Source: a virus
DNA length: 64,000 bases
IMG/VR virus record: IMGVR_UViG_3300047089_000152
Location: 32,001-96,000 of that record
Direction: 5' to 3' (one strand)
Below, one piece after another: positions 261 through 58,509 of the stretch (positions are counted from its first letter, which is position 1; each line of letters opens with the position of its first letter). The notes below the pieces were generated by a model that saw only the letters and a list, made by a program, of their open reading frames with translations, made no database searches and was not told where the DNA came from. Position numbers and translations under genes: made by a program.

Positions 261-368
261 ATGGCCACTAAGGATAAATGCTGCCGTGGATGGTACCGGT
301 GCACGTGCGTCAAGACGTGTACCTGCCGGTGCGGGGCGTGCAGATGCTCCACGCGGAGACGCCGGTGA
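261..368 (+). CDS. small Cys-rich protein
   Basis: ATG261..TGA368, MATKDKCCRGWYRCTCVKTCTCRCGACRC; GTGA overlap with the next gene. Confidence 0.4.
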   Translation: MATKDKCCRGWYRCTCVKTCTCRCGACRCSTRRRR

Positions 369-1396
369 ATATCCCCTCGACCGCCGAACTTCTACTCCGC
401 GCCGACTGGGCGCGTCCCCGGTCTCGGCAGACAGCGCTGGGCATGTCCGACCTCGGTGGGTGTCGTCGCCGTGCCGGATATCAGCTGGCCGGTTACCAGC
501 CGGAGAAACCAAGCGGATCAATTCAAGCTGTCATTGGCACGGCAGTGCATGATGCCGTGGATGCCGCGCTGAAAAAGATGCGCGAAGACGGGATCATTCC
601 CGCCGACTCGGTCATCAACGAGGCCGTCTCGTTTGGTGGCGTCGTAGGGCACCCGGACCTTTATGTGGACGGGGTACTCAGGGATGTTAAAACTCTCGGG
701 TATGGGGCGCAGCTGGCGAACGCGAAGCTGTACGGTCCGAAGCGGCAGCATCTGTGGCAAGTCATGACGTACGCCGCAGCCTGTATCCTCGCGGACCGGC
801 CGGTGCGCACTGTCCAGATTGATTACCTTGTCAGGGATTCCGGTGAAAGCTGGATATGGGAAGGGCCGTTCGATTTCGGGCAGGTCCGCGAGGCGATGCA
901 GTGGCTGGAATCGGTGCGGGAAACGCCGCTGGAATTCCTCGCCAGGGATTACGCTCCAGATTCGGCGACATGCAAAGGCTGCCCGTTCTTCAACGCCTGC
1001 TGGGACGGCCACGTGGTCGACCGTGACGAACGATCCGTCCTGCTAGTCACCGATGACGACGCGGTGCAGTGGGCGCTGCGACTGGAAGTAGCCCGGGAAC
1101 GGATCAAGACGGCGAAAGAAGAAGAAGCCCTGTCGAAAGGCGCGCTCGACGGGCTACGCCCTAACGACAAGGGAAAGGCGGAAATAAAATTGACTGGCTA
1201 CCCGAAGACTCTGCGCTGGACAGTCACTACGCGGAAGAATCTGGACACCGAAGTAATAAAGCAAGATTATGCGAGGGGCGGCATTATGCCGCCCCTCGCA
1301 TCGAGCGAAAGCGTCCGGTTGGAGTTGCTCGCGCCGCGGGATGAGGATTTATCCTGCCTATCCAATCCCGGCCGCTCCATGCCAAGCCATGCCTAG
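365..1396 (+). CDS. Cas4-like / RecB-family PD-(D/E)XK exonuclease
   Basis: GTxxH, GHPD..DVKT, QxxxY motifs; Fe-S cysteines (GGCRR ... CKGCPFFNAC); GTG365 start. Confidence 0.85.
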   Translation: MNIPSTAELLLRADWARPRSRQTALGMSDLGGCRRRAGYQLAGYQPEKPSGSIQAVIGTAVHDAVDAALKKMREDGIIPADSVINEAVSFGGVVGHPDLYVDGVLRDVKTLGYGAQLANAKLYGPKRQHLWQVMTYAAACILADRPVRTVQIDYLVRDSGESWIWEGPFDFGQVREAMQWLESVRETPLEFLARDYAPDSATCKGCPFFNACWDGHVVDRDERSVLLVTDDDAVQWALRLEVARERIKTAKEEEALSKGALDGLRPNDKGKAEIKLTGYPKTLRWTVTTRKNLDTEVIKQDYARGGIMPPLASSESVRLELLAPRDEDLSCLSNPGRSMPSHA

Positions 1397-1413
1397 CCGC
1401 GCCTATCCCTTGC
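1351..1413 (-). ncRNA. satellite pentamer guide array S1 (11 pentamers + GGCA)
   Basis: minus strand GCAAG GGATA GGCGC GGCTA GGCAT GGCTT GGCAT GGAGC GGCCG GGATT GGATA GGCA; TATGAT -10 at 1426-1431(-). Confidence 0.7.
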
Positions 1414-7082: not shown

Positions 7083-7119
7083 TGGCAGGATCTCACGGTC
7101 GTGGCAGGATCTCACGGTC
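7083..7119 (+). repeat. tandem direct repeat TGGCAGGATCTCACGGTC x2 upstream of a promoter
   Basis: copies at 7083-7100 and 7102-7119, just before TGG-TACACT. Confidence 0.6.
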
Positions 7120-7143
7120 AGACGCCAGTGGTACACTAAAGGT

Positions 7144-9878: not shown

Positions 9879-10706
9879 ATGGCCACCTACAAGACGCTGC
9901 GCAGTGACGACCCGAAAGTCCAGCAAGCCCGGCAACGCGCCGGGAAAATCGTCGGGGCGATGAACGACCTCGCCGCCCTCGTCCAACAGTCGTGGGACGC
10001 GAAAGACTGGCGCGTCCTCGGCTATGACTCCTGGCAGAGTTACACGGTCGGGGAGTTCGGCCACGGCGACACCGCCATCAAAGCCCGGCAGGTCATCGTG
10101 TCCATGCTCCGAGGAACCGGACTGTCCCAACGCGCCATCGCCGCGGAGACCGGCGCGTCCGTCGCGACCGTCAACAACGACATTGCCGACCTGTCAACCG
10201 CACCCCCGGAGGGTGACCCTACGACGATCGACCGGCGACCCCGGCCGACTGTTCAGGAACCTGAACAGTCACTCAGAGTAACCGGGCTGGACGGTAGGAC
10301 ACAACCCGCCAGCAGAGGAGGCATGACAGGAGACCAGCGCAGAGAACGGGACCGGCTACTGCGGGCGCAAAGACGGCAAAGAGAAGCGGCCCTCCGCGAA
10401 ACCCACGCCGCCGACGCCGCCCGGCCGGTACCTGACATGATCCACGGTCACCCCGTGACCGTCACCTGCCCGATGTGCGTAGAACTGGCACGCCCAGCCC
10501 GCGAAGCACCCGTTGAACCACTAGCTGGACATTCCGTCGAAACCCGGCTTCGGCTGCTGTTCGCCGGGTTCCTCGACGGTCTCACCCCCGACCAGCTCAC
10601 CGCCCTGCACGACCACTGGGACGAGATCATGAACGAAACCGTCACAGACCGGATCACTAGCTGGGCCGCCGTCGGCCGTACCGTCGCGCAGGAAAGGGCA
10701 AGCTGA
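9879..10706 (+). CDS. HTH DNA-binding protein
   Basis: W..LGYDSW..Y...EFG and GLSQRAIAAETGASVATVNND. Confidence 0.7.
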   Translation: MATYKTLRSDDPKVQQARQRAGKIVGAMNDLAALVQQSWDAKDWRVLGYDSWQSYTVGEFGHGDTAIKARQVIVSMLRGTGLSQRAIAAETGASVATVNNDIADLSTAPPEGDPTTIDRRPRPTVQEPEQSLRVTGLDGRTQPASRGGMTGDQRRERDRLLRAQRRQREAALRETHAADAARPVPDMIHGHPVTVTCPMCVELARPAREAPVEPLAGHSVETRLRLLFAGFLDGLTPDQLTALHDHWDEIMNETVTDRITSWAAVGRTVAQERAS

Positions 10707-11125
10707 TGAACGGTCAGACTGTCCCCCGGCCCCGGCCGTGCGCGTCGTGTCCGTACCGTAGAGACGTGCCGTCCGGTGTGTGGGCCGCGGAAGAATATGA
10801 CAAGCTACCCCGCTACGACGGGGACACGGGTGAGCAGGCGATGGCCGGGGCGTTCGGCGTGTTCATGTGTCACCAGGCTGACGGGCACCTGTGTTCAGGT
10901 TGGGTAGCCGCCCACGACATGCAGCACAACCTGGCGATACGCATGGCCCGCGACGTGGACATGCCAGCGGTCCTGTCGTACACCACGGACGTGTCGGTGT
11001 TTGGTTCCGGTGCGGAAGCCGCGGCGCACGGCAAGGCCGACATCGAGACCCCGGGGCCGGAAGCTATGCGGACCGTGGAGAAGATCACCGTGGTACGCGG
11101 TAGGCGCGGGAAAGGGAAAGGATGA
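10706..11125 (+). CDS. DUF6283-like protein
   Basis: PCASCPYRRDVPSGVWA.EEY.KL..YD...F.CHQ....CSGW. Confidence 0.7.
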   Translation: MNGQTVPRPRPCASCPYRRDVPSGVWAAEEYDKLPRYDGDTGEQAMAGAFGVFMCHQADGHLCSGWVAAHDMQHNLAIRMARDVDMPAVLSYTTDVSVFGSGAEAAAHGKADIETPGPEAMRTVEKITVVRGRRGKGKG

Positions 11126-11319
11126 GGCGGCCTAGGACGGAGCTGGAAGCGTACCGGTGTCCTGATTGCGGGTACACGGCGTTGATACAGCGGCTGGCTA
11201 GCCGGAGGAAGCTGACGGGGCATTTGAAGTGGTTGTGGTGTGTGCGGTGTGAGGTGCCCACGAATCATGTACTGGTCCCCTAGCCTGGACGGTTGTGGTA
11301 CGCTGTGGGTACAGCAAAC

Positions 11320-11453
11320 GGACCGGAAGGGAAAGGCTGGGCGCGGCAGGCATCGCAGCGGCCGGGATAGCAGCGGATCGGAGCGGCAGGACAGGATTGG
11401 CAGGGCACGGCTGGGCTAGGTGTGGCTGGGCTGGGAACGGAATGGATTGGACA
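11320..11453 (+). ncRNA. satellite guide array S2 (13 pentamers, GGCA, 13 pentamers)
   Basis: 5-nt periodic GG(C/A)NN; TGG-TACGCT -10 at 11296-11304. Confidence 0.75.
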
Positions 11454-11520
11454 CTAGCCGCACCGCATGCTACAGTAGAGGTATAGTCAACGGACGAGGG
11501 CATGAAAGGAACAACGCACC

Positions 11521-12186
11521 ATGCCACCACGCAAGACCACCACAGGCGGACCAGTCCAGCTCACCAGGCTGGCAGAAGAAGTCGCCCAAATCCACATCGC
11601 CGGGGCTACGCCACTTATTATTCATAAATGGTCGGAAAAGGCGCTCAACCAGATGCGGATCGCCCAGTCCGGGGCAATTAAGCCGCCCCGCGAACCCAAG
11701 AACGCCGAAGAAAACGCCCACGCGGCAACATACTGGGTCGACGTCGCCGAGACGATCCCCGGCATCCCCAGCGTCTCATTCAAGGCCGCCATGGTCGGAG
11801 CCTGCCGGTTCTTCGACGGCCTCCCCATGACGACAGCAAAATTGCTGTTCTTCGTCGACGGGGTCGTCAGCGAAGCCAAGGGCGACGCGCCAGCACGCGA
11901 CCTGCTCGTCCCGATTATCTCCGGCCCTGGGGAAATGCGGGAAGACACCCCGCGCAACGACAACGGAAACCCGGACCTCCGGTACAGGAATCAGTTCTTC
12001 CCGTGGAAAGCCGTACTCAACGTGCGGTTCATGCCCGCGAAGATCGCCCCCGAATCCGTCATCGCGCTAGCTGACGCCGCCGGTCGTGGCGGTGTCGGAG
12101 AATGGCGTCCATCCGCACCGAAAAGCGCGACTGGCACATACGGCCAGTTTCGTGTCATCACCCGGAAGGAATGGGAGTCGGCCTAA
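11521..12186 (+). CDS. stand-alone Cas7/RAMP-like RNA-binding protein (Vipr-like effector)
   Basis: I.G.TPLIIH start, PGIPSVSFKAAM..AC, C-terminal Gly-rich loop GRGGVGEWRP...GTYGQFRV; flanked by guide arrays. Confidence 0.8.
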   Translation: MPPRKTTTGGPVQLTRLAEEVAQIHIAGATPLIIHKWSEKALNQMRIAQSGAIKPPREPKNAEENAHAATYWVDVAETIPGIPSVSFKAAMVGACRFFDGLPMTTAKLLFFVDGVVSEAKGDAPARDLLVPIISGPGEMREDTPRNDNGNPDLRYRNQFFPWKAVLNVRFMPAKIAPESVIALADAAGRGGVGEWRPSAPKSATGTYGQFRVITRKEWESA

Positions 12187-12187
12187 A

Positions 12188-12745
12188 ATGGCGACCATCA
12201 CCGTCGAACAGCAGTGGGCGTTCAAATCGGGTGCGCGTGTCCCGGGTGGCGTCCACGCCGAGGATGTGGTGCGTGAGAAGGAACAGATGGAAGACCACCT
12301 GGGCCGCCTCGCCACCACGGAGGAAGCCGCGGAAATGGTCCTCCGCTGGCCTACCAAGTACAAGGCGCACCGGGCGTTCGCACCGGCAACCGAGAAAGAA
12401 GCACTCCACGAAGCAGTGGTACGCGGTGTTCGGAGCGCCTGGAGTTCCGTGATTCAGGTCGACGTCGAAATCACCGAGGTCACCAACCGGATTTCCGGTG
12501 ATATCGAGATCGCAACCAGGCGTGTCGACGCACCCGAAGTGAGATGGTTTCACGCCGTGCCAGCACGCGTCGGCGACACGCAACGAGTTTATGACTCGTT
12601 GCCGAATATCGCAGCCGATGCTGACAAGGAAGCGGCGCTGTCCGAAGATCTCGCCACGCAAGCACGCAACTTCTCCGCAAAAGTAGCCAGCGTCACTGGC
12701 GAGCTGGCGCGGTTGCACAAGTTGCGCAGCACCGCCGGAAATTAG
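12188..12745 (+). CDS. accessory protein of the RAMP/array locus, function unknown
   Basis: starts 2 nt after the RAMP stop, ends immediately before the array leader hairpin. Confidence 0.7.
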   Translation: MATITVEQQWAFKSGARVPGGVHAEDVVREKEQMEDHLGRLATTEEAAEMVLRWPTKYKAHRAFAPATEKEALHEAVVRGVRSAWSSVIQVDVEITEVTNRISGDIEIATRRVDAPEVRWFHAVPARVGDTQRVYDSLPNIAADADKEAALSEDLATQARNFSAKVASVTGELARLHKLRSTAGN

Positions 12746-12790
12746 ACCACCAGGTTCCGGCCGGGGAAACTCGGCCGGAACCTGGTCGGT
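12746..12790 (+). other. array leader hairpin with GAAA tetraloop
   Basis: ACCAGGTTCCGGCCG-GG-GAAA-CT-CGGCCGGAACCTGGT: 15 perfect pairs plus G.U and G-C. Confidence 0.85.
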
Positions 12791-12794
12791 AAGG

Positions 12795-14073
12795 GGAGTG
12801 GAGGGGCAGGGACTGTCGTGGCAAGGAACGGCAGGGCACGGAGTGGATTGGCAGGATAGGCTCGGCGCGGCCAGGCGGGGAGCGTTTCGGAGTGGCATGG
12901 ATTGGCTGGGACTGGCAGTATCGGATCGCAGTGGTCAGGGTAGGCAAGGCCCGGCCAGGCGGGGCTCGGTATGGCCTGCACTGGCGGGGAACGCAATGGA
13001 GTGGCAGGACCGGTGTGGAATGGCTGGGACGGGAACGGCGCGGTAGGGAATGGAGTGGCAGGAACGGTGGGGCCGGGCGCGGCGCGGCTAGGCTCGGCGC
13101 GGACGGGCATGGATTGGCTGGGCAGGACAGGATCGGAGAGCAGGGGGCTGGCGCGGCATGGCACGGAGAGGCAGGAGAGGAACGGTCGGGACAGGAGCGG
13201 CAAGGAGCGCACCGGCAGGCAGCGGCAGGGAATGGCATGGAACGGACTGGATTGGCAGGACAGGACCGGCATGGCCAGGAGGGGCATGTCCTGGAATGGA
13301 ATGGCAGGAATGGCTGGGTACGGCGGGGCCGGGCGAGCATTGGACAGGACCGGCAGTCGCGGAAGGGCTCGGCAGGGACCGGATTGCAGCGGCGAGGATG
13401 GGCTAGGCAGGAGCGGAACGGCAGGGCATGGCCTGGATCGGAGCGGCTGGGCAGGATAGGCATGGATCGGCCTGGGTAGGCAAGGAGGGGCTGGGACGGG
13501 ACCGGATTGGCAGGGCAGCAGTGGAGAGGCAAGCCGTGCAATGGCGGGGCGGGGCGTGGCATGGACTGGACCGGCAGGACTGGACTGGACTGGATTGGAG
13601 AGCAGGGCAGTGGCAGGGATCGTAGGGGTTCGGACGGGCAGGTTAGGCTTGGACGGGCTAGGCGTGGCATGGGCCGGCAAGGAACGGCTCGGAGCGGCAG
13701 GGATTGGCACGGCTCGGAGTGGCAGGACCGGACGGGTACGACGTGGCGTGGCTGGCATTGGCAAGGACTGGCAGGAGTGGATTGGCAGGGCCGGGCTTGG
13801 CATGGCGTGGCTGGGAATGGCGTGGCAGGACAGGTGGGGCTTGGCGGGCCGGGGATCGGCACGGATGGGCATGGCATGGCCCGGTAGGGCATGGCAGCAT
13901 TGGACTGGACCGGACCGGCAAGGCTTGGCTTGGCTGGGATCGGATGGGAACGGCAGGAGCGGAGCGGACTGTCGTGGCATGGCATGGCCTGGCGTGGCGC
14001 GGATCGGACGGGCAGGATAGGTCGGGCGTGGAATGGAACGGACGGGCTGGGCATGGAACGGCAGGATAGGAGT
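12795..14073 (+). ncRNA. main guide array: 237 GG(C/A)-NN pentamers in 21 GGCA-delimited segments
   Basis: 237x5 + 21x4 = 1269 nt accounts exactly for 12795-14063, then GGATA GGAGT; segments of 8-17 pentamers. Confidence 0.85.
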
Positions 14074-14279
14074 GACCCGCAGGGCTACTGTCGGGGTGGG
14101 CCGCGTGCCCCGGCAGAAGTTCGGCGGTGGATGATCTTGTGCTCGTGCGGCCATCCTGCGGTCGAGCATGACCTGAACCGTTCGGAGACTAAGCGAACAG
14201 TTTGCCTGACCACCGAACGGACTACGAAATGTCCGTGCGTGCTATATTCACCAGACCTTCGTGATACACTAGAGGTACA

Positions 14280-15149
14280 ATGAACGAGACCATAGAACGA
14301 GAAGACCGCAGGGCCGTCACCGCGCTCACCTCCGGGGAAAACGCCACGAAGGTCACCGTCAAAACAAGCGACGGCAACTACGAAGAACGACAGCTAACCG
14401 TCCACGGGCTCGCACGGCTGATTCCCGTGATCGCACTGGGCGACATGGACCGGCTGATAGACGACGTGCGCGAACACGGCGTCCTCGAACCCCTGATCAT
14501 GTTCCAGGGACAAGTCCTTGACGGACGCAACCGGCTCGCCGTAGCTTCGGTCGTCGGCGTACCCGTGCAGCTCACCGAATTCGACGGAGACGAAGCCGCA
14601 GCCAGAAACTTCGTCTGGTCCGCGAACGCTGCGAGGCGGCACCTGTCCGTCCCCCAGATCGCGCTGGCCGCTGAACGGTTCGGTTTCGTCGACGCCGCCA
14701 AAGCCGAAGCAGGCCCCGACGACCCCAACCTGGATATCCGCTCGACGGTCGCACCATGGGCGCGAATCGCCGCGCGAAAGGTCGGTGCGATCACCCCGGC
14801 TACACTGGAACGGTTCCAGCAAGCCAGGATCCCCGAGGCACCCGACACGATGCGCCGGGTCGATTCCGGTGAGATCCGCCGGGTCGACGTCGCGGTCAAG
14901 GAAGCGGTCGCGGAGCGGACCGTGCTCACCGGCCGTCTCATCCAGGTTCCACCCCCGGTTGCGCGTACCGCGTGGGACCGGCTGGGCTGCGCGCGGGGTG
15001 ACGTTCTCGCCGCGGAACGCGCCATCCTGGCAGGGGACTGGGGTGGGATGGAAAGGGACCAGTTCGCTGTCCGCGCCCGTGAAATCCAGGGAGCCCTGAT
15101 CAGGATTCAGAATTTGTATCGTTATGGATCGGGCGGCAGGACCGGTTAG
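14280..15149 (+). CDS. ParB N-terminal domain protein
   Basis: L..DVREHGVLEPL...GQVLDGRNRL...SANAARRHLS. Confidence 0.8.
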   Translation: MNETIEREDRRAVTALTSGENATKVTVKTSDGNYEERQLTVHGLARLIPVIALGDMDRLIDDVREHGVLEPLIMFQGQVLDGRNRLAVASVVGVPVQLTEFDGDEAAARNFVWSANAARRHLSVPQIALAAERFGFVDAAKAEAGPDDPNLDIRSTVAPWARIAARKVGAITPATLERFQQARIPEAPDTMRRVDSGEIRRVDVAVKEAVAERTVLTGRLIQVPPPVARTAWDRLGCARGDVLAAERAILAGDWGGMERDQFAVRAREIQGALIRIQNLYRYGSGGRTG

Positions 15150-15207
15150 GACGGGCTAGGAATGGCTGGGCTGGGCATGGACTGGAATGGCAGGAATGGA
15201 ATGGCTA
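15135..15207 (+). ncRNA. satellite guide array S3
   Basis: GGCA + 10 pentamers (15139-15188) + GGCA + 3 pentamers; overlaps the ParB stop and the next ATG. Confidence 0.8.
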
Positions 15208-30748: not shown

Positions 30749-30864
30749 GCATTGGAGGGGCATGGCATGGCACGGCCCGGAGTGCTGGGGTGGGGAACGG
30801 AATGGATGGGCAGGATAGATCCAGGTTGGTGCGCATCTTTTACAGGTGCGCACCAACCTGGATC
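30749..30864 (+). ncRNA. satellite guide array S4 plus 18-bp hairpin
   Basis: 12 pentamers 30749-30808, GGCA, GGATA; TGG-TAGGAT -10 at 30733-30741; inverted repeat 30818-30835/30847-30864. Confidence 0.8.
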
Positions 30865-31250
30865 AGAAATGAGCATCCCATGTATTGCTGGCCGGCGTAT
30901 TCGGTGAGTCCGTAGGTCATCACCTGCAATACGACCGTGAACTCCACCGCCCCGCCCAGGGTCGGGTCAGCCTGCACCGCCGCGTTGATGCTTTTAGTAC
31001 CGGACGTGGACACGTAGTCGTCGATTACGTCCTGGCCGGAAGCGTCGTTCGCGGCGGATACCAGCACGACGGCGAGGAGATTGACCTGGGTTTCGCCGTC
31101 CATCGTGATGCCGTAATTGACCGCTGGCCGGTTCGGGATTATGACCGCGCATGGCGGTATGACCTGCCCGGGTGCGATCGCGTGTACGTTCAGCCCGGTG
31201 GTGGATAGCCGGGTTGCGAGCGCGACCCTGATCGCTTTGACGTTAGCCAT
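30840..31250 (-). CDS. tail terminator / completion protein
   Basis: SI.AA..ADPTLGG motif; position. Confidence 0.7.
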   Translation of the reverse strand: MANVKAIRVALATRLSTTGLNVHAIAPGQVIPPCAVIIPNRPAVNYGITMDGETQVNLLAVVLVSAANDASGQDVIDDYVSTSGTKSINAAVQADPTLGGAVEFTVVLQVMTYGLTEYAGQQYMGCSFLIQVGAHL

Positions 31251-47257: not shown

Positions 47258-47501
47258 GCCGCCCATGACCTCCGGTCGTGCCGGGCTACAGCGGGACCGC
47301 GCCCACCGGGACACGCACCGCGTGCACATGACGGTCGGGTCGTACGGGTCCAGTCGCGTCCATGCGCCACACCAGAAACAGTACCCCACGGCATAAGCCC
47401 TCCACGGACAGGCTGCCGGGGTCTAGGACAGCGGTTATGTATAACCCTGACCGTCGTTAGCATCATAGCGTCCCATGTGGTACGCTTAGAGTCCGAGCCG
47501 A

Positions 47502-47610
47502 GGCAGGATGGGATTGGCATGGCGCGGCAAGGTAGGGCTCGGATCGGCAAGGAATGGATAGGAACGGCAGGAGTGGCAGGGTGCGGTCCTCTCGTATCGG
47601 GAGGACCGCA
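47502..47610 (+). ncRNA. satellite guide array S5 plus hairpin
   Basis: GGCA, 12 pentamers 47506-47565, GGCA, 2 pentamers; TGG-TACGCT -10 at 47478-47486; hairpin 47582-47610. Confidence 0.85.
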
Positions 47611-47627
47611 TCTCCATTTTCCAACCG

Positions 47628-48911
47628 TCATCCTGCCGCCATATGTGAGTCGAAGAAATTATCCTTCGGGCCGATATGGGAACGGAACTTGTACTTACGG
47701 ATCAATTCCTCGCGGATTCCCACGAGGTCTTCTGAACTGAGTTCCGCCGTGCGGACCACGGAATCGGTACCCATGTTCTTTTGCCCGTAGGCGCCAAGTC
47801 CTTCTCCAGTAAATATCAGGTCGGTAGCTATTCCCTCGTCCATTTCCCGCCTGAATTCTGTGCCGCGATAAGGATAATAGATAGCAATCTGCGCATCATC
47901 TATCCCTGACGTGCAGATGAACCGTTCAGTCTCCGCGATCGTAGCGCGTGTCTCGCCGGGTAGCCCGATCATCACGAATGCTTTCACGGTGATGCCCGCA
48001 TCCTTGCAGTACCGGACACAATCGTAATTCTGCGTGGCGGTTGTCTTCTTATCCATCCGGTCTAGCATCTGCTGCGACCCGGATTCCGCACCAAACGCCA
48101 CCTCGACACACCCCGCATCGGCTAGCGCCGCGGCGAACTCCGCGGTCATGAATTTCGCGTGCACATTGCAGCGAAATCTTAGCCCGGAGCGCTTGAGTAG
48201 GTCCAGGTACGGCTGGCACTTCCCCAAATTAATTGCAAAAAGATCATCATACAAATACACGCCCTCATACCCGAGCGTCACGATGTCGTCCAGTTCGGCC
48301 TCGGCGTTGCCCAGCGAAGTCCACCTGGTCAGCGTCCGCGCGTCTTCACAGAACTTGCACGCCATCGGACAGCCCCGGCCGAGCATCATCGTGGTCGAGT
48401 TCAGCCCGGCCAGGGTGTACGAGTAGTTTTTCAGGAACCCAGGCTCACCCAGCCGGTCCGGGCGGGGCATCGCCGCTAGTTCCTGCCGGGGGATCTGGTC
48501 GTTGCTCATGACAGGAACCGTTTTGTTCTGCACGATGCCTGGCAGTGCCCGCTCCCCGTCGCCTGCCACCAGGTAGTCCCACAGCCCGGCCTGGTCGTCT
48601 GCGTTCATCTCCCGGCCGTAATGCCGGACGTGCGGGCCGCCTGCCACCAGAACTTTGGACGGCCAGCGGCTCCTGATCGCGCGGGCTATCCGGTTAGCCT
48701 CGGCGCGCTGCGGTGTCATCACCGAGACGCCTACTATGTCAGCGTCCGCGAACTGGTCCAGATCCTCGACGTCGTATTCGTCTACGACGCTGATCTTAGT
48801 ACCGGGGGCCTGCGCGGCCACCGCGGATTTCAGGTACAGCAGGCCGAGGGGCGGGTAGATACGGTCGTCGTCCAGGAACGGGGACCGGCAGGAAACCAGG
48901 GACAGTTTCAT
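47628..48911 (-). CDS. B12-binding radical SAM enzyme
   Basis: PPLGLLYL..GGPH; RGCPMACKFC; GAESGSQ; IGLPGET. Confidence 0.9.
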   Translation of the reverse strand: MKLSLVSCRSPFLDDDRIYPPLGLLYLKSAVAAQAPGTKISVVDEYDVEDLDQFADADIVGVSVMTPQRAEANRIARAIRSRWPSKVLVAGGPHVRHYGREMNADDQAGLWDYLVAGDGERALPGIVQNKTVPVMSNDQIPRQELAAMPRPDRLGEPGFLKNYSYTLAGLNSTTMMLGRGCPMACKFCEDARTLTRWTSLGNAEAELDDIVTLGYEGVYLYDDLFAINLGKCQPYLDLLKRSGLRFRCNVHAKFMTAEFAAALADAGCVEVAFGAESGSQQMLDRMDKKTTATQNYDCVRYCKDAGITVKAFVMIGLPGETRATIAETERFICTSGIDDAQIAIYYPYRGTEFRREMDEGIATDLIFTGEGLGAYGQKNMGTDSVVRTAELSSEDLVGIREELIRKYKFRSHIGPKDNFFDSHMAAG

Positions 48912-54199: not shown

Positions 54200-54556
54200 T
54201 CAGGATTTCCTGGCGGGCCGGGCCTTATTCATAGATTTCGCGGGCTTTTTAGCCGCGGGCTTAGCCGCAGCAGGCTTCGCTTCGGCAGCAGGCTTCGCGG
54301 TCTTCGCGGCAGCTGAATCGCCCTTACCCTGCGAGGATGGCAACTCCGGGTATTTCCGACGGACCGCTGCCTGAACTTTTGCCTTCTCCGCAGGCGTCCC
54401 ATTCGCCGCAACTCGTGACAGGGCGTTAGCGCCCCGTGCCTTAGAGTTAATAGGGTATGCGTCAGCACCACCAGGACCACCACCAGGCAGCGCATACGAC
54501 CCAGCCGGCGCGGCAGTATTAGGCGCAGGCTTACCGGTCTTCTTCCTCGGTGGCAT
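54200..54556 (-). CDS. small basic head-region protein
   Basis: YPI..ARGANALSRV...V.RKYP plus Lys/Ala tail; GGGAG RBS. Confidence 0.7.
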   Translation of the reverse strand: MPPRKKTGKPAPNTAAPAGSYALPGGGPGGADAYPINSKARGANALSRVAANGTPAEKAKVQAAVRRKYPELPSSQGKGDSAAAKTAKPAAEAKPAAAKPAAKKPAKSMNKARPARKS

Positions 54557-54575
54557 ATAATCTCCCTTAGTGCCA

Positions 54576-54685
54576 GGTATGGAGGGGTGCGGCTTGGCGT
54601 GGCTTGGCGGGGCGCGGCGGGGATTGCATTGGATTGGATTGGCAGGAACGTCACTGACCTGCACCTACGCGGTGCAGGTCAGTGA
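54576..54685 (+). ncRNA. satellite guide array S6 plus 15-bp hairpin
   Basis: 13 pentamers 54576-54640, GGCA, GGAAC; TATAAT at 54556-54561; inverted repeat 54651-54665/54671-54685. Confidence 0.85.
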
Positions 54686-58417: not shown

Positions 58418-58453
58418 GAGTCTCCTACGTGGTACACTGTAGGTACAGAAAGG

Positions 58454-58509
58454 GGATAGGAGCGGCAGGGCTTGGCCTGGAGAGGATCGGCTGGGATTGG
58501 ATTGGCAGG
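58454..58509 (+). ncRNA. satellite guide array S7
   Basis: 10 pentamers 58454-58503, GGCA GG; TGG-TACACT-GTAGGTAC promoter 58430-58446. Confidence 0.8.

What the first reader, a model, noticed from the sequence alone, without database searches (positions are those of the whole stretch)
11320..14073. Stand-alone Cas7/RAMP-like gene with a 21-unit GG(C/A)-NN guide array: a non-CRISPR RNA-guided system
Seen: a RAMP-like ORF (PLIIH, IPSVSFKAAM, Gly-rich GGVGEWRP..GTYGQF), a coupled accessory ORF, a GAAA-loop hairpin, then 237 pentamers. Each pentamer has a near-constant 3-nt scaffold (mostly GGC or GGA) and a free NN, and 4-nt GGCA punctuation splits them into 21 segments. No cas1/2/3/5/6 and no CRISPR repeat-spacer array occur in the window. 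Knowledge: Cas7 family proteins polymerise on guide RNA with fixed periodicity, and this layout resembles VIPR systems (GGY/NN guides) as I recall them; that recollection needs checking. Inference: each segment is one guide, with one subunit bound per pentamer. The heavy use of GGA instead of GGY may mark a distinct subtype.
Basis: partly seen in the sequence, partly recalled or inferred. Interest (0 to 1): 0.95.

Follow-up and report, generated by a model that had tools for sequence, protein, structure and literature searches.

The report
Phage VIPR guide-RNA system, purine variant
A large soil-type phage carries a VIPR system, a CRISPR-like RNA-guided DNA-silencing system first described in 2026: a small Cas7-like protein, a partner gene and 21 guide RNAs built from five-letter repeats. 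It is a known kind with two unusual features: about half of its repeats have an A where the published rule expects C or T, and extra stand-alone guides spell variant versions of the genes next door.

Summary
The stretch 12795-14063 contains 21 units of 8-17 GGxNN pentamers, each closed by a 4-nt GGCA. The ORF at 11521-12186 has a RAMP fold; its family profile hits only the SUSP1 Vipr protein in the PDB. Its relatives, in Mycobacterium and Gordonia phages and in metagenomes, sit beside the same GGCA-punctuated arrays. This matches the 'staggered array' architecture of the VIPR discovery preprint, so the kind is already known. This scan has also met it often: about 420 notes in at least 298 genomes.

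Three things differ here.
1. Position 3 of the repeat is A in 48% of pentamers, concentrated at the unit ends. Relatives use C or T, and the SUSP1 structure excludes purines. A locus whose Vipr is 93% identical shares this trait.
2. Six solo guide cassettes lie up to 46 kb from vipr.
3. Four of the six have their best genome-wide match, by the 1-nt-skip rule, in the adjacent gene. These matches are in codon register and imperfect. One of them matches VIPR-null relatives better than self.

The targets of the 21 array guides were not found. No expression data were available.

The parts
11293..11304 (+). Promoter-like box TGTGGTACGCT just upstream of the three leading vrRNA units
   Evidence: The motif TGGTACRCT occurs exactly at 11296, 47478 and 58430, each directly upstream of a vrRNA unit, and also at 7129, 8158 and 62251. 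That it is a promoter is inferred.
11320..11453 (+). Three upstream vrRNA-like units: U1 11320-11348, U2 11349-11388, U3 11389-11453
   Evidence: Pentamer parse with GGCA boundaries. No target was found above shuffled controls.
11448..11476 (+). Sigma-70-like promoter (TGGACA, 17 nt, TACAGT, with TG) ahead of vipr
   Evidence: Consensus scan, 9 of 12 matches. Consensus match only.
11521..12186 (+). vipr: 221-aa RAMP (Cas7-like) protein
   Evidence: - phrog_4652, E 5.7e-23.
- PDB profile hit only to 36pp 'SUSP1 Vipr protein', E 3.4e-6, aligning the G-loop GVG(D/E)WRP and the thumb Arg.
- AlphaFold model pLDDT 85.5.
- Top Foldseek hits are Csm3, Cmr4 and type VII Cas7, E about 1e-5.
- At least 607 homologues.
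12188..12745 (+). vap: 185-aa accessory protein of unknown fold, starting 1 nt after the vipr stop codon
   Evidence: - No Pfam or PHROG hit.
- 75% identical in L066 at the same position.
- About 20 remote relatives of 150-190 aa.
- AlphaFold pLDDT 94 but no structural match: Foldseek E above 0.5, VIA Z below 5.
12749..12786 (+). Strong hairpin between vap and the array (GAAA loop, no U-tract on the + strand)
   Evidence: -41.5 kcal/mol, z -7.05. A hairpin occupies the same place in L066 with changed stem bases.
12795..14063 (+). Main vrRNA array: 21 different units of 8-17 GG(A/C)NN pentamers, each ending in a 4-nt GGCA
   Evidence: The same GGCA punctuation occurs in relatives' arrays. It matches the 'staggered arrays' described in the legend of fig. 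S18 of the discovery preprint.
14064..14117 (+). Two trailing pentamers (GGATA GGAGT), then a weak hairpin closing the array
   Evidence: The hairpin z-score is only -0.79, so it is not significant.
15135..15193 (+). Solo cassette d1: 10 pentamers flanked on both sides by GGCAGGA. The ParB-like ORF reads into it.
15098..15127 (-). Near-cognate site of d1 in the last codons of the ParB-like gene (14280-15149): 18 of 20 bases, skipped base at the wobble position
   Evidence: Shuffled guides reach at most 15, with 0 of 200 reaching 18.
30754..30864 (+). Solo cassette d2 (11 pentamers + GGCAGGA) and its 3' hairpin
   Evidence: Hairpin -42.2 kcal/mol, z -8.3.
31135..31167 (+). Near-cognate site of d2 in ORF 30840-31250 (- strand): 17 of 22 bases, wobble-aligned
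   Evidence: The homologous site in relatives G001 and G003 also scores 17 of 22 and is their genome-wide best hit.
47502..47611 (+). Solo cassette d3 (12 pentamers, GGCAGGA on both sides), with its promoter box at 47478 and a 3' hairpin
   Evidence: Hairpin -36.6 kcal/mol, z -6.
48226..48261 (+). Near-cognate site of d3 inside the B12-binding radical SAM gene (47628-48911, - strand): 20 of 24 bases, wobble-aligned
   Evidence: 0 of 200 shuffles reach 20. The homologous site in six relatives scores 22 of 24. Pfam assignment.
54576..54685 (+). Solo cassette d4 (13 pentamers + GGCAGGA) and its 3' hairpin
   Evidence: Hairpin -35.8 kcal/mol, z -6.6.
54504..54542 (+). Near-cognate site of d4 in ORF 54200-54664 (- strand): 19 of 26 bases, wobble-aligned, 34 nt from the cassette
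   Evidence: The score alone is borderline (16% of shuffles reach it). The evidence is the proximity.
58454..58508 (+). Solo cassette d5 (10 pentamers + GGCAG), with a promoter box at 58430, between two - strand genes next to the terminase gene
   Evidence: No near-self match.
1354..1408 (-). Solo cassette m1 (10 pentamers + GGCAGGA) on the - strand
   Evidence: No near-self match.

Best explanation
This is a phage-encoded VIPR system of the clade with 'staggered' arrays.

**Core mechanism.** The steps below are inferred by homology to the SUSP1 system; none is shown for this locus.
- Vipr (11521-12186) polymerises on each vrRNA, one protomer per pentamer.
- It buries the GG-plus-one scaffold bases and presents the two variable bases.
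- These pair with double-stranded DNA while skipping every third target base, which silences the bound gene.
- The operon reads: promoter, vipr, vap, hairpin, 21-unit array.
- Each unit ends in a 4-nt GGCA followed by GG(A). This shifts the 5-nt register by one and most likely delimits filaments or processing sites.

**How this locus differs.** The scaffold is GG(A/C). GGA marks the first one or two and the last two to four pentamers of each unit, and GGC dominates the core.

**Solo guide genes.** Six further single-guide genes, most with their own -10-like box and three with a strong 3' hairpin, are scattered through the genome.
- Four sit next to a gene that contains an imperfect, codon-registered copy of their target.
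- My preferred reading, at about 40%, is that each pairs a guide against rival alleles of that gene with a linked, mismatched and therefore immune self allele.
For: **Protein**
- The PDB sequence search returns only the SUSP1 Vipr protein (E 0.56 for the single sequence, 3.4e-6 for the profile). It aligns thumb R156 to R138, and G-loop E194, W195, R196 to D177, W178, R179.
- RAMP fold: Foldseek probability 1.0 to Csm3, Cmr4 and Cas7.
- Phage family phrog_4652.

**Array**
- Statistics.
- Positions 4 and 5 are near maximum entropy.
- Position 3 equals the skipped target base in only 9 of 46 cases, which is chance level. It is therefore scaffold, not guide.

**Co-occurrence**
- Relatives in Mycobacterium phage Saal, Gordonia phages UmaThurman and ODay, about 30 IMG/VR loci and L066 all carry same-strand pentamer arrays with GGCA punctuation.

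**Context**
- The record is a 104-kb tailed-phage record.
- No CRISPR array and no Rfam hit.

**The published code works here**
- Four solo guides match neighbouring genes under the 1-nt-skip rule, with the skipped base at codon position 3 in all four cases.
- d3 matches the homologous site of six VIPR-null relatives at 22 of 24 bases, against 20 of 24 for self.
- d2 hits the homologous site in relatives as their genome-wide best match.

**No self-targeting by the array.** The 21 array guides do not match their own genome above shuffled controls, as reported for published systems.
Against: - No RNA or protein expression data are available. Processing at GGCA, RNP formation and DNA binding are all inferred.
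- No target was found for any of the 21 array guides. Places searched: own genome, three related genomes, about 40 relatives' VIPR loci, four exact or core IMG/VR scans and one scan of 401 genomes.
- Purine at position 3 conflicts with the SUSP1 pocket, which 'sterically excludes purines'. Either this Vipr has a different pocket or the GGA pentamers are bound differently or not at all.
- vap matches nothing known, so its role is open.
- d1 matches its own genome at 18 of 20 bases. By the papers' threshold of at least 80% this would count as self-targeting.
- No perfectly matching rival allele was found for d1 or d3.
- d5 and m1 have no near-self match.
Confidence: 0.9

Rival explanations
1. 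The solo cassettes d1-d4 regulate the phage's own genes. Partial complementarity lets Vipr-vrRNA bind the phage's own ParB-like, radical SAM and two late-region genes, as a timing or dosage control. They are not weapons against rival alleles.
For: - d1 matches self at 18 of 20 bases, above the 80% threshold the papers use for targets.
- For d1 and d4 the self site is the best match found anywhere.
- All four guides are antisense to the adjacent gene.
Against: - d3 matches cassette-less, VIPR-null relatives better than self (22 against 20 of 24).
- The self allele carries a non-synonymous F-to-Y change exactly where the guide reads F/L.
- d2 decodes to a third allele, intermediate between self and the relatives.
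- Published solo vrRNAs show lower self-match than rival-match.
- A regulator would be expected to match its site perfectly.
Confidence: 0.25
2. The pentamer tract is not a guide array. It is a DNA-level element, for example centromere-like or iteron repeats for the ParB-like protein encoded just downstream, or a simple-sequence satellite. The RAMP protein is unrelated to it.
For: - The array abuts a ParB-like gene (14280-15149).
- L066 has the same order of genes.
- No transcription data are available.
Against: - In relatives the arrays travel with vipr, not with a ParB gene (Saal, UmaThurman, ODay).
- Arrays are always on the vipr strand.
- Two fully variable bases per 5 nt and 21 different units do not suit a protein-binding repeat.
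- Solo units have their own promoter-like boxes and hairpins.
- Solo units follow the published RNA-DNA code in codon register.
Confidence: 0.03
3. The tract encodes a repetitive protein. Long ORFs cross it on both strands, for example 12742-14169 on the - strand (475 aa).
For: Open frames of 453 and 475 aa cover the array.
Against: - A 5-nt period with 21 one-base register shifts is incompatible with a conserved reading frame.
- Several frames are open at once, as expected for stop-poor repeats.
- No Pfam hit for any of these ORFs.
- Relatives conserve the pentamer grammar but not the sequence.
Confidence: 0.01
4. It is a degenerate or minimal CRISPR-Cas remnant: a lone type III or type VII Cas7 that has lost its array and partners.
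For: The best structural matches are Csm3, Cmr4 and type VII Cas7.
Against: - Sequence identity to those is only 10-14%, while the family profile hits only the SUSP1 Vipr protein in the PDB.
- No repeat-spacer array and no other cas genes are present.
- A large, phage-borne family with more than 600 members has conserved pentamer arrays.
Confidence: 0.02

Closest known systems
VIPR systems with staggered vrRNA arrays (bioRxiv 10.64898/2026.04.26.720920, fig. S18). Natural examples examined here: Mycobacterium phage Saal gp51 locus, Gordonia phages UmaThurman and ODay, and IMG/VR loci L005-L040
   Same: - The Vipr proteins are homologous (37-59% identity).
- Arrays lie on the same strand as vipr.
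- Units of about 8-17 pentamers are closed by a 4-nt GGCA, equivalent to a 1-nt overlap GGCAG|GG.
- There is no 3' tail.
- The context is a phage genome.
   Different: - Relatives use GGC or GGT almost exclusively, with A at position 3 in at most about 10% of pentamers. Here A is 48% and marks the unit ends.
- Seven positions that are at least 80% conserved in 39 GGY-using relatives are substituted in this protein and in its 93%-identical relative: P34I, P62A, E65N, A84S, G116V, Q128L, D194E.
- vap shows no detectable similarity to Saal gp52.
- Saal has no dispersed solo units.
Type II VIPR of Escherichia phage SUSP1, the experimental and structural reference (bioRxiv .720920, .720927; PDB 36pp)
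   Same: - A lone RAMP protein with G-loop and thumb.
- GG-plus-one scaffold and NN guide pentamers.
- vrRNAs both upstream and downstream of vipr-vap.
- The 1-nt-skip, wobble-aligned code, seen here in four guide-site pairs.
   Different: - SUSP1 vrRNAs have an invariant 3' tail with a pseudoknot and are about 100 nt long. Here there is no tail, only GGCA punctuation.
- SUSP1 has 4 vrRNAs. This phage has 21 in the array, 3 upstream and 6 solo.
- SUSP1 excludes purines at position 3.
- The residue that contacts G1 in SUSP1, D177, is E194 here.
Solo (orphan) vrRNAs of F5 satellites and VIPR-null SUSP1-family phages (bioRxiv 10.64898/2026.10.15.759431)
   Same: - Stand-alone guide genes lie away from vipr.
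- Targets are wobble-aligned.
- The self-match is lower than the match to rivals (seen here for d3).
   Different: - The published solos sit in elements that lack vipr, at the former vipr locus or in satellites.
- Here six solos are dispersed over 57 kb of a genome that carries vipr.
- Each of four lies immediately beside the gene whose variant it spells.
Csm3 / Cmr4 / type VII Cas7 backbone subunits of class 1 CRISPR-Cas
   Same: - RRM core, thumb hairpin and glycine-rich loop.
- Polymerisation on a guide RNA with fixed periodicity.
   Different: - 5-nt rather than 6-nt periodicity.
- No repeat-spacer array, no Cas10, Cas11 or Cas5 partners, and no adaptation genes.
- Only 10-14% sequence identity.
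Free-standing homing endonucleases of phages (marker exclusion). This is an analogy only, recalled from general knowledge.
   Same: A selfish cassette is inserted next to a gene whose rival alleles it recognises, while the linked self allele is mismatched.
   Different: - Recognition here would be by RNA guide, not by protein.
- No nuclease has been identified.
- No evidence of DNA cleavage or of cassette spread.

Membership tests
VIPR system | Vipr protein: a minimal RAMP with RRM core, glycine-rich loop and thumb | tested here: met
   - AlphaFold model pLDDT 85.5.
- Foldseek probability 1.0 to Csm3, Cmr4 and Cas7.
- G-loop GRGGVGEWRP at residues 188-197.
- Thumb hairpin at residues 137-159, carrying R156.
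VIPR system | Sequence homology to an experimentally validated Vipr | tested here: met
   A family profile of 41 sequences hits only the PDB 36pp 'SUSP1 Vipr protein', E 3.4e-6, over thumb and G-loop. The single sequence gives E 0.56.
VIPR system | Flanking tandem pentamers with conserved GG and two hypervariable bases | tested here: met
   About 240 pentamers. G at position 1 in 99.6% and at position 2 in 90%. Positions 4 and 5 have entropy 1.99 and 1.94 bits.
VIPR system | Pyrimidine at repeat position 3 (GGY) | tested here: not met
   Position 3 is A 48%, C 42.5%, T 6%, G 4%. The discovery paper allows 'a related consensus' and NNNGG-type repeats, so this bars the strict GGY subtype but not the class.
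VIPR system | Minimal locus: vipr plus one accessory gene, with no cas genes and no CRISPR array | tested here: met
   vap starts 1 nt after the vipr stop codon. No CRISPR array and no cas1, cas2 or cas3 were seen.
VIPR system | vap belongs to one of the six described vap families | not testable with these tools
   The vap1-6 sequences are not at hand. vap has no Pfam, PHROG or structural match.
VIPR system | Viral or proviral context | tested here: met
   IMG/VR virus record of 104,150 bp with capsid, portal and terminase genes.
VIPR system | Guides match natural targets by the 1-nt-skip rule, with the skip at the codon wobble position | tested here: met
   Met for solo guides d1-d4, where 4 of 4 are wobble-aligned. 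d1 and d3 exceed every one of 200 shuffles. d3 scores 22 of 24 in six relatives. No target was found for the 21 array guides.
VIPR system | vrRNAs are transcribed, processed and bound by Vipr; the complex binds DNA | not testable with these tools
   No expression or biochemical data are available.
VIPR type II (SUSP1-like) | Invariant 3' tail with a pseudoknot after each repeat tract | tested here: not met
   Units abut one another with only a 4-nt GGCA between them. Solo units end in GGCAGGA and then, in three cases, a strong simple hairpin.
VIPR staggered-array architecture (fig. S18 of the discovery preprint) | Adjacent vrRNAs share one nucleotide, so the end of one is the start of the next | tested here: met
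   All 21 junctions read GGCA|GG, equivalent to GGCAG overlapping GGxNN by one G. The legend was read. The figure itself and the type number are not held.
CRISPR-Cas | Repeat-spacer array and adaptation or effector cas genes | tested here: not met
   None found in the window. Only a PD-(D/E)XK exonuclease at 278-1396.

The most novel reading that the evidence does not exclude
The dispersed solo cassettes may be RNA-guided marker-exclusion modules. Each would couple a guide against rival alleles of an adjacent gene to a linked, mismatched and therefore immune self allele. In mixed infections the VIPR-carrying phage would then silence that gene in cassette-less relatives, and any recombinant that gains the guide would also gain the immune allele. 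Under this reading the GGA-marked unit ends and the GGCAGGA flanks are the portable boundaries of such cassettes. A further possibility is that this Vipr sub-clade has a remodelled pocket that accepts A at position 3, which would widen the VIPR scaffold code.
Probability: 0.3. Interest if true: 0.8.

Novelty: new variant of a known kind. Interest (0 to 1): 0.5.

Why it matters
The VIPR class itself is already published, so the main value here lies in the detail.

1. **A natural exception to the GGY rule.** The SUSP1 structure explains GGY by a pocket that excludes purines. This sub-clade offers a natural test of that rule, with seven diagnostic substitutions to examine. It could also relax design constraints for engineered vrRNAs.
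2. **Possible boundary signals in tail-less arrays.** The GGA-marked ends and the GGCA register shift give a concrete hypothesis for how tail-less arrays are cut into guides. The preprint did not confirm this experimentally.
3. **Solo guides beside the genes they nearly match.** These occur in a genome that carries vipr, and relatives that lack both VIPR and the cassette match one guide better than self. This suggests guide and immune allele are inherited as a linked pair. If so, 'inter-phage warfare' would extend to allele-level competition among close relatives.

Tried and rejected
**Targets of the 21 array guides were not found.**
- Own 104-kb record: no hit above shuffled guides under skip rules 0, 1 or 2. 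The perfect score at skip 3 is the array matching itself.
- About 356 kb of relatives' VIPR loci.
- Three whole related phage records, G001-G003.
- Exact IMG/VR scans with full guides A04 and A17 found nothing.
- A 9-dinucleotide core of A15 gave one hit, which extended to only 20 of 32 bases and is therefore a chance match.
- A15 with up to 3 mismatches found nothing in 401 genomes sampled from the phylum of a Mycobacterium prophage carrier.
- Decoding the guides into degenerate peptides showed no motif I could recognise.

**Perfect rival alleles for d3 and d1.** None in IMG/VR.

**Guide sharing with the 93%-identical locus L066.** None convincing.

**vap function.**
- Pfam gave only a sub-threshold Sigma70_r3 hit. 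PHROGs, PDB Foldseek, BFVD, VIA-wide and the ESM Atlas were all uninformative.
- Profile comparison with Saal gp52 gave probability 0.4%.

**Position 3 as part of the guide.** Rejected: it equals the skipped target base in only 9 of 46 cases.

**Host.**
- Only hints: prophage relatives in Mycobacterium szulgai and in a Micromonosporaceae MAG.

**VIPR type number.** Types I-VII could not be assigned because the figures and supplementary tables are not held.

**Residue mapping onto SUSP1.**
- Mapping of the SUSP1 helix-1 pocket residues E71 and M72 was not possible, because only the C-terminal 47 residues align significantly.
- The alignment of H35 to SUSP1 H17 rests on a non-significant segment.


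Full report
**1. Observation**

The region was read directly and parsed by script.
- In 12780-14080 the base autocorrelation is 0.55 at lag 5, 0.51 at lag 10 and 0.49 at lag 15. At the lags in between it is 0.17-0.34.
- A dynamic-programming parse of 12795-14073 gives about 240 pentamers and 21 four-nt steps. Every step can be read as GGCA followed by GG.
- Position 1 is G in 99.6% of pentamers and position 2 is G in 90%.
- Position 3 is A 48%, C 42.5%, T 6%, G 4%.
- Positions 4 and 5 are near maximum entropy (1.99 and 1.94 bits).
- Units hold 8-17 pentamers plus GGCA (44-89 nt), and all 21 differ.

Around the array:
- The partner ORF runs from 12188 to 12745, starting 1 nt after the stop codon.
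- A very stable hairpin follows at 12749-12786 (-41.5 kcal/mol, z -7).
- Three more units lie upstream at 11320-11453.
- The window has no CRISPR array and no Rfam family.

**2. What the protein is**

- Pfam has nothing. PHROGs places it full-length in phrog_4652, of unknown function (E 5.7e-23).
- Against all PDB sequences the single protein hits one entry only, 36pp 'SUSP1 Vipr protein' (E 0.56).
- A profile of 41 homologues raises this to E 3.4e-6. It aligns the thumb arginine (R156 to SUSP1 R138) and the G-loop GVG(D/E)WRP (E194, W195, R196 to D177, W178, R179).
- An AlphaFold model (pLDDT 85.5) matches the Csm3, Cmr4 and type VII Cas7 backbone subunits with Foldseek probability 1.0 at 10-14% identity.
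- The family is large, with at least 607 proteins.
- In GenBank phages it occurs in 27 Mycobacterium records, 5 Gordonia records and 1 cyanophage record.

**3. Literature**

- The discovery preprint (bioRxiv 10.64898/2026.04.26.720920) describes the system: a lone ancestral RAMP (Vipr), an accessory gene (vap), and vrRNAs of 9-16 YNNGG repeats.
- It describes targeting of double-stranded DNA in which the NN bases pair and every third target base is skipped, usually the codon wobble.
- It defines seven types and includes 'staggered arrays with overlapping vrRNAs', in which neighbouring vrRNAs share one nucleotide.
- It also reports variant repeats (NNNGG and others).
- The structural preprint (.720927) shows one protomer per repeat. 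G1 is read by H17 and D177, and G2 by R138 and W178. Position 3 sits in a pocket that 'sterically excludes purines'.
- A third preprint (10.64898/2026.10.15.759431) describes solo vrRNAs in satellites and in phages that have lost vipr. Their self-match is lower than their match to rivals.

**4. Co-occurrence test**

- Saal, UmaThurman and ODay carry same-strand pentamer arrays next to the homologue.
- So do nearly all of about 30 IMG/VR loci whose protein is at least 42% identical.
- Parsed in the same way, these arrays show the same 4-nt GGCA punctuation between units of about 8-16 pentamers.
- The locus therefore belongs to the staggered-array clade of VIPR. The junction GGCA|GG is GGCAG and GGxNN sharing one G.
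- Some GenBank CDS calls overlap these arrays and are probably spurious. UmaThurman gp40 lies almost entirely over the array, and the 5' extension of Saal gp51 overlaps one.

**5. What differs: the scaffold base**

- In every relative examined, position 3 is C, less often T, and A reaches at most about 10%. Here A is 48%.
- The A is positioned. The first pentamer of a unit is GGA in 18 of 21 units, the second in 13 of 21, the last in 16 of 21 and the second-to-last in 14 of 21.
- The unit core is 59% C and 33% A.
- The solo units show the same pattern.
- The trait is inherited. The metagenomic locus L066 has a Vipr 93% identical, a vap 75% identical and the same gene order. Its two arrays, of about 17 and 12 units, have 36-39% A.
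- No guide is convincingly shared with L066.
- Against 39 GGY-using relatives, this protein and the L066 protein share seven substitutions at positions that are at least 80% conserved: P34I, P62A, E65N, A84S, G116V, Q128L, D194E.
- D194E falls on the residue that contacts G1 in SUSP1.
- P34I lies next to the probable H17 equivalent. That alignment segment is not significant, so this mapping is tentative.
- Whether these changes cause purine tolerance is inference.
- Position 3 is not part of the guide. In the four guide-site pairs it equals the skipped target base in 9 of 46 cases, which is chance level.

**6. What differs: dispersed solo guides**

A whole-record scan found six further single units.

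| Unit | Coordinates | Strand |
|---|---|---|
| d1 | 15135-15193 | + |
| d2 | 30754-30813 | + |
| d3 | 47502-47570 | + |
| d4 | 54576-54645 | + |
| d5 | 58454-58508 | + |
| m1 | 1354-1408 | - |

- Five of the six end in GGCAGGA; d5 ends in GGCAGGC. d1 and d3 also have GGCAGGA on their 5' side.
- Most have a -10-like box just upstream. The motif TGGTACRCT occurs exactly at 11296, 47478 and 58430.
- d2, d3 and d4 are followed by strong hairpins (-36 to -42 kcal/mol, z -6 to -8).
- The capsid, portal and terminase genes are on the - strand. So d2-d5 lie in the opposite orientation to the surrounding genes, at or near gene junctions of the late region.
- Saal has no such dispersed units.

**7. The solo guides spell the gene next door**

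First-stage notes on this genome suggested this. I tested it independently with the published 1-nt-skip rule against the whole 104-kb record, using 200 order-shuffled guides per guide.

| Guide | Best hit | Score | Shuffle control |
|---|---|---|---|
| d1 | 15098-15127, 11 nt away, last codons of the ParB-like gene | 18/20 | max 15; 0 of 200 reach 18 |
| d3 | 48226-48261, in the adjacent B12-binding radical SAM gene | 20/24 | max 19; 0 of 200 reach 20 |
| d2 | 31135-31167, in the adjacent ORF | 17/22 | 7% reach it |
| d4 | 54504-54542, 34 nt away | 19/26 | 16% reach it |

- For all four the genome-wide best hit lies within 750 bp. By my estimate the chance of that is about 2% per guide.
- In all four the skipped base is codon position 3 of the overlapped gene, and the guide is antisense to the gene.
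- d5 and m1 show nothing.
- None of the 21 array guides matches the phage's own genome above shuffled controls.

**8. Relatives**

- The radical SAM gene has homologues of 75-78% identity in six IMG/VR records.
- Five of those records, including the 97%-complete G001, have no Vipr.
- None of the six has a cassette within 1.5 kb of the gene.
- At the homologous site all six match d3 at 22 of 24 bases, better than self.
- The peptide there is VYLFDDLFAINL in the relatives and VYLYDDLFAINL in this phage. The guide decodes to F/L at the differing residue.
- For d2, the homologous site in G001 and G003 also scores 17 of 22 and is their genome-wide best hit. The guide decodes to an allele intermediate between self and these relatives.
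- For d1 no better allele was found. L066 has only a 3-pentamer stub between the same GGCAGGA flanks at that place.
- Exact scans of IMG/VR found no perfect allele for d1 or d3.

**9. Mechanism**

Shown here:
- homology and fold of Vipr;
- the grammar of the array;
- co-occurrence in relatives;
- code-conforming matches of four solo guides.

Inferred from SUSP1:
- one protomer per pentamer;
- GG-plus-one bases buried and NN presented;
- a gapped R-loop and silencing.

Inferred from anatomy:
- The promoter at 11448-11476 drives vipr-vap.
- The hairpin at 12749-12786 lacks a U-tract on the + strand. The array is probably read through from this promoter or stabilised by the hairpin.
- The 4-nt GGCA breaks the 5-nt register. 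That is a plausible stop for filament growth and a plausible site for trimming.
- The GGA-rich ends may play the role of the missing 3' tail.

For the solo cassettes I rank three readings:
- a guide against rival alleles linked to an immune self allele, about 40%;
- autoregulation of the phage's own genes, about 25%;
- other or decayed, the remainder.

**10. Limits**

- There are no expression data.
- The targets of the array guides are unknown.
- vap is confidently folded (pLDDT 94) but matches nothing.
- The host is only hinted at, as Actinomycetota.
- The VIPR type number cannot be assigned.

**11. Verdict**

This is a genuine VIPR system, a kind already in print and met many times in this scan: about 420 notes in at least 298 genomes.

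This locus is a variant with three features:
- a GG(A/C) scaffold with GGA-marked unit ends;
- a 21-unit main array plus three upstream units;
- six solo cassettes in a genome that carries vipr, four of them beside near-cognate genes.

Interest is moderate. It is not the discovery of a class, but it offers two concrete, testable extensions of it.

Noticed in passing
window 7129, 8158, 11296, 47478, 58430, 62251 (+ strand): An exact 9-mer TGGTACRCT recurs six times, always on the + strand. Three copies sit directly upstream of vrRNA units. It looks like a phage-specific extended -10 promoter. The longer shared context is GTGGTACRCTNNRGGTACA at 11295 and 58429.
   Followed up: partly
window 7083-7119: A 19-nt direct repeat (1.9 copies, 100% identical) contains GGCAGGA, the same heptamer that closes five of the six solo vrRNA units. 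Its role is unknown.
   Followed up: no
window 15098-15149 and L066 8430-8495: The ParB-like ORF reads into the d1 cassette, so its last residues are encoded by the cassette start. The 93%-related locus L066 has only three pentamers between the same GGCAGGA flanks. Units therefore seem to grow or shrink between fixed boundaries.
   Followed up: partly
L001 3833-4000 (Saal gp51 5' extension); L002 4625-4948 (UmaThurman gp40): Annotated GenBank CDSs overlap pentamer arrays. UmaThurman gp40 lies almost wholly inside the array, and the start of Saal gp51 is extended over one. They are probably mis-annotations of vrRNA arrays.
   Followed up: partly
window 47628-48911 (- strand): A B12-binding radical SAM enzyme gene lies in the phage late region. 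It is 75-78% conserved in six related large phage records. It is an unusual phage gene and is the target family of solo guide d3.
   Followed up: partly
window 278-1396 (+ strand): A PD-(D/E)XK exonuclease hits phrog_1706, which is named 'CRISPR/Cas system associated' (Cas4-like). The solo unit m1 overlaps its 3' end on the opposite strand. It is probably an ordinary phage recombination nuclease.
   Followed up: partly
window 10706-11125 and 11122-11283: A DUF6283 protein (E 2e-31) and a 53-aa zinc-ribbon protein lie just upstream of the VIPR locus. No link to VIPR is evident.
   Followed up: no
G001 (IMGVR_UViG_3300036771_000024, 119 kb), G002, G003: These close genome-level relatives of this phage have no Vipr and no pentamer tract of six or more units. 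VIPR and all cassettes therefore look like gains in this lineage, or losses in theirs.
   Followed up: partly
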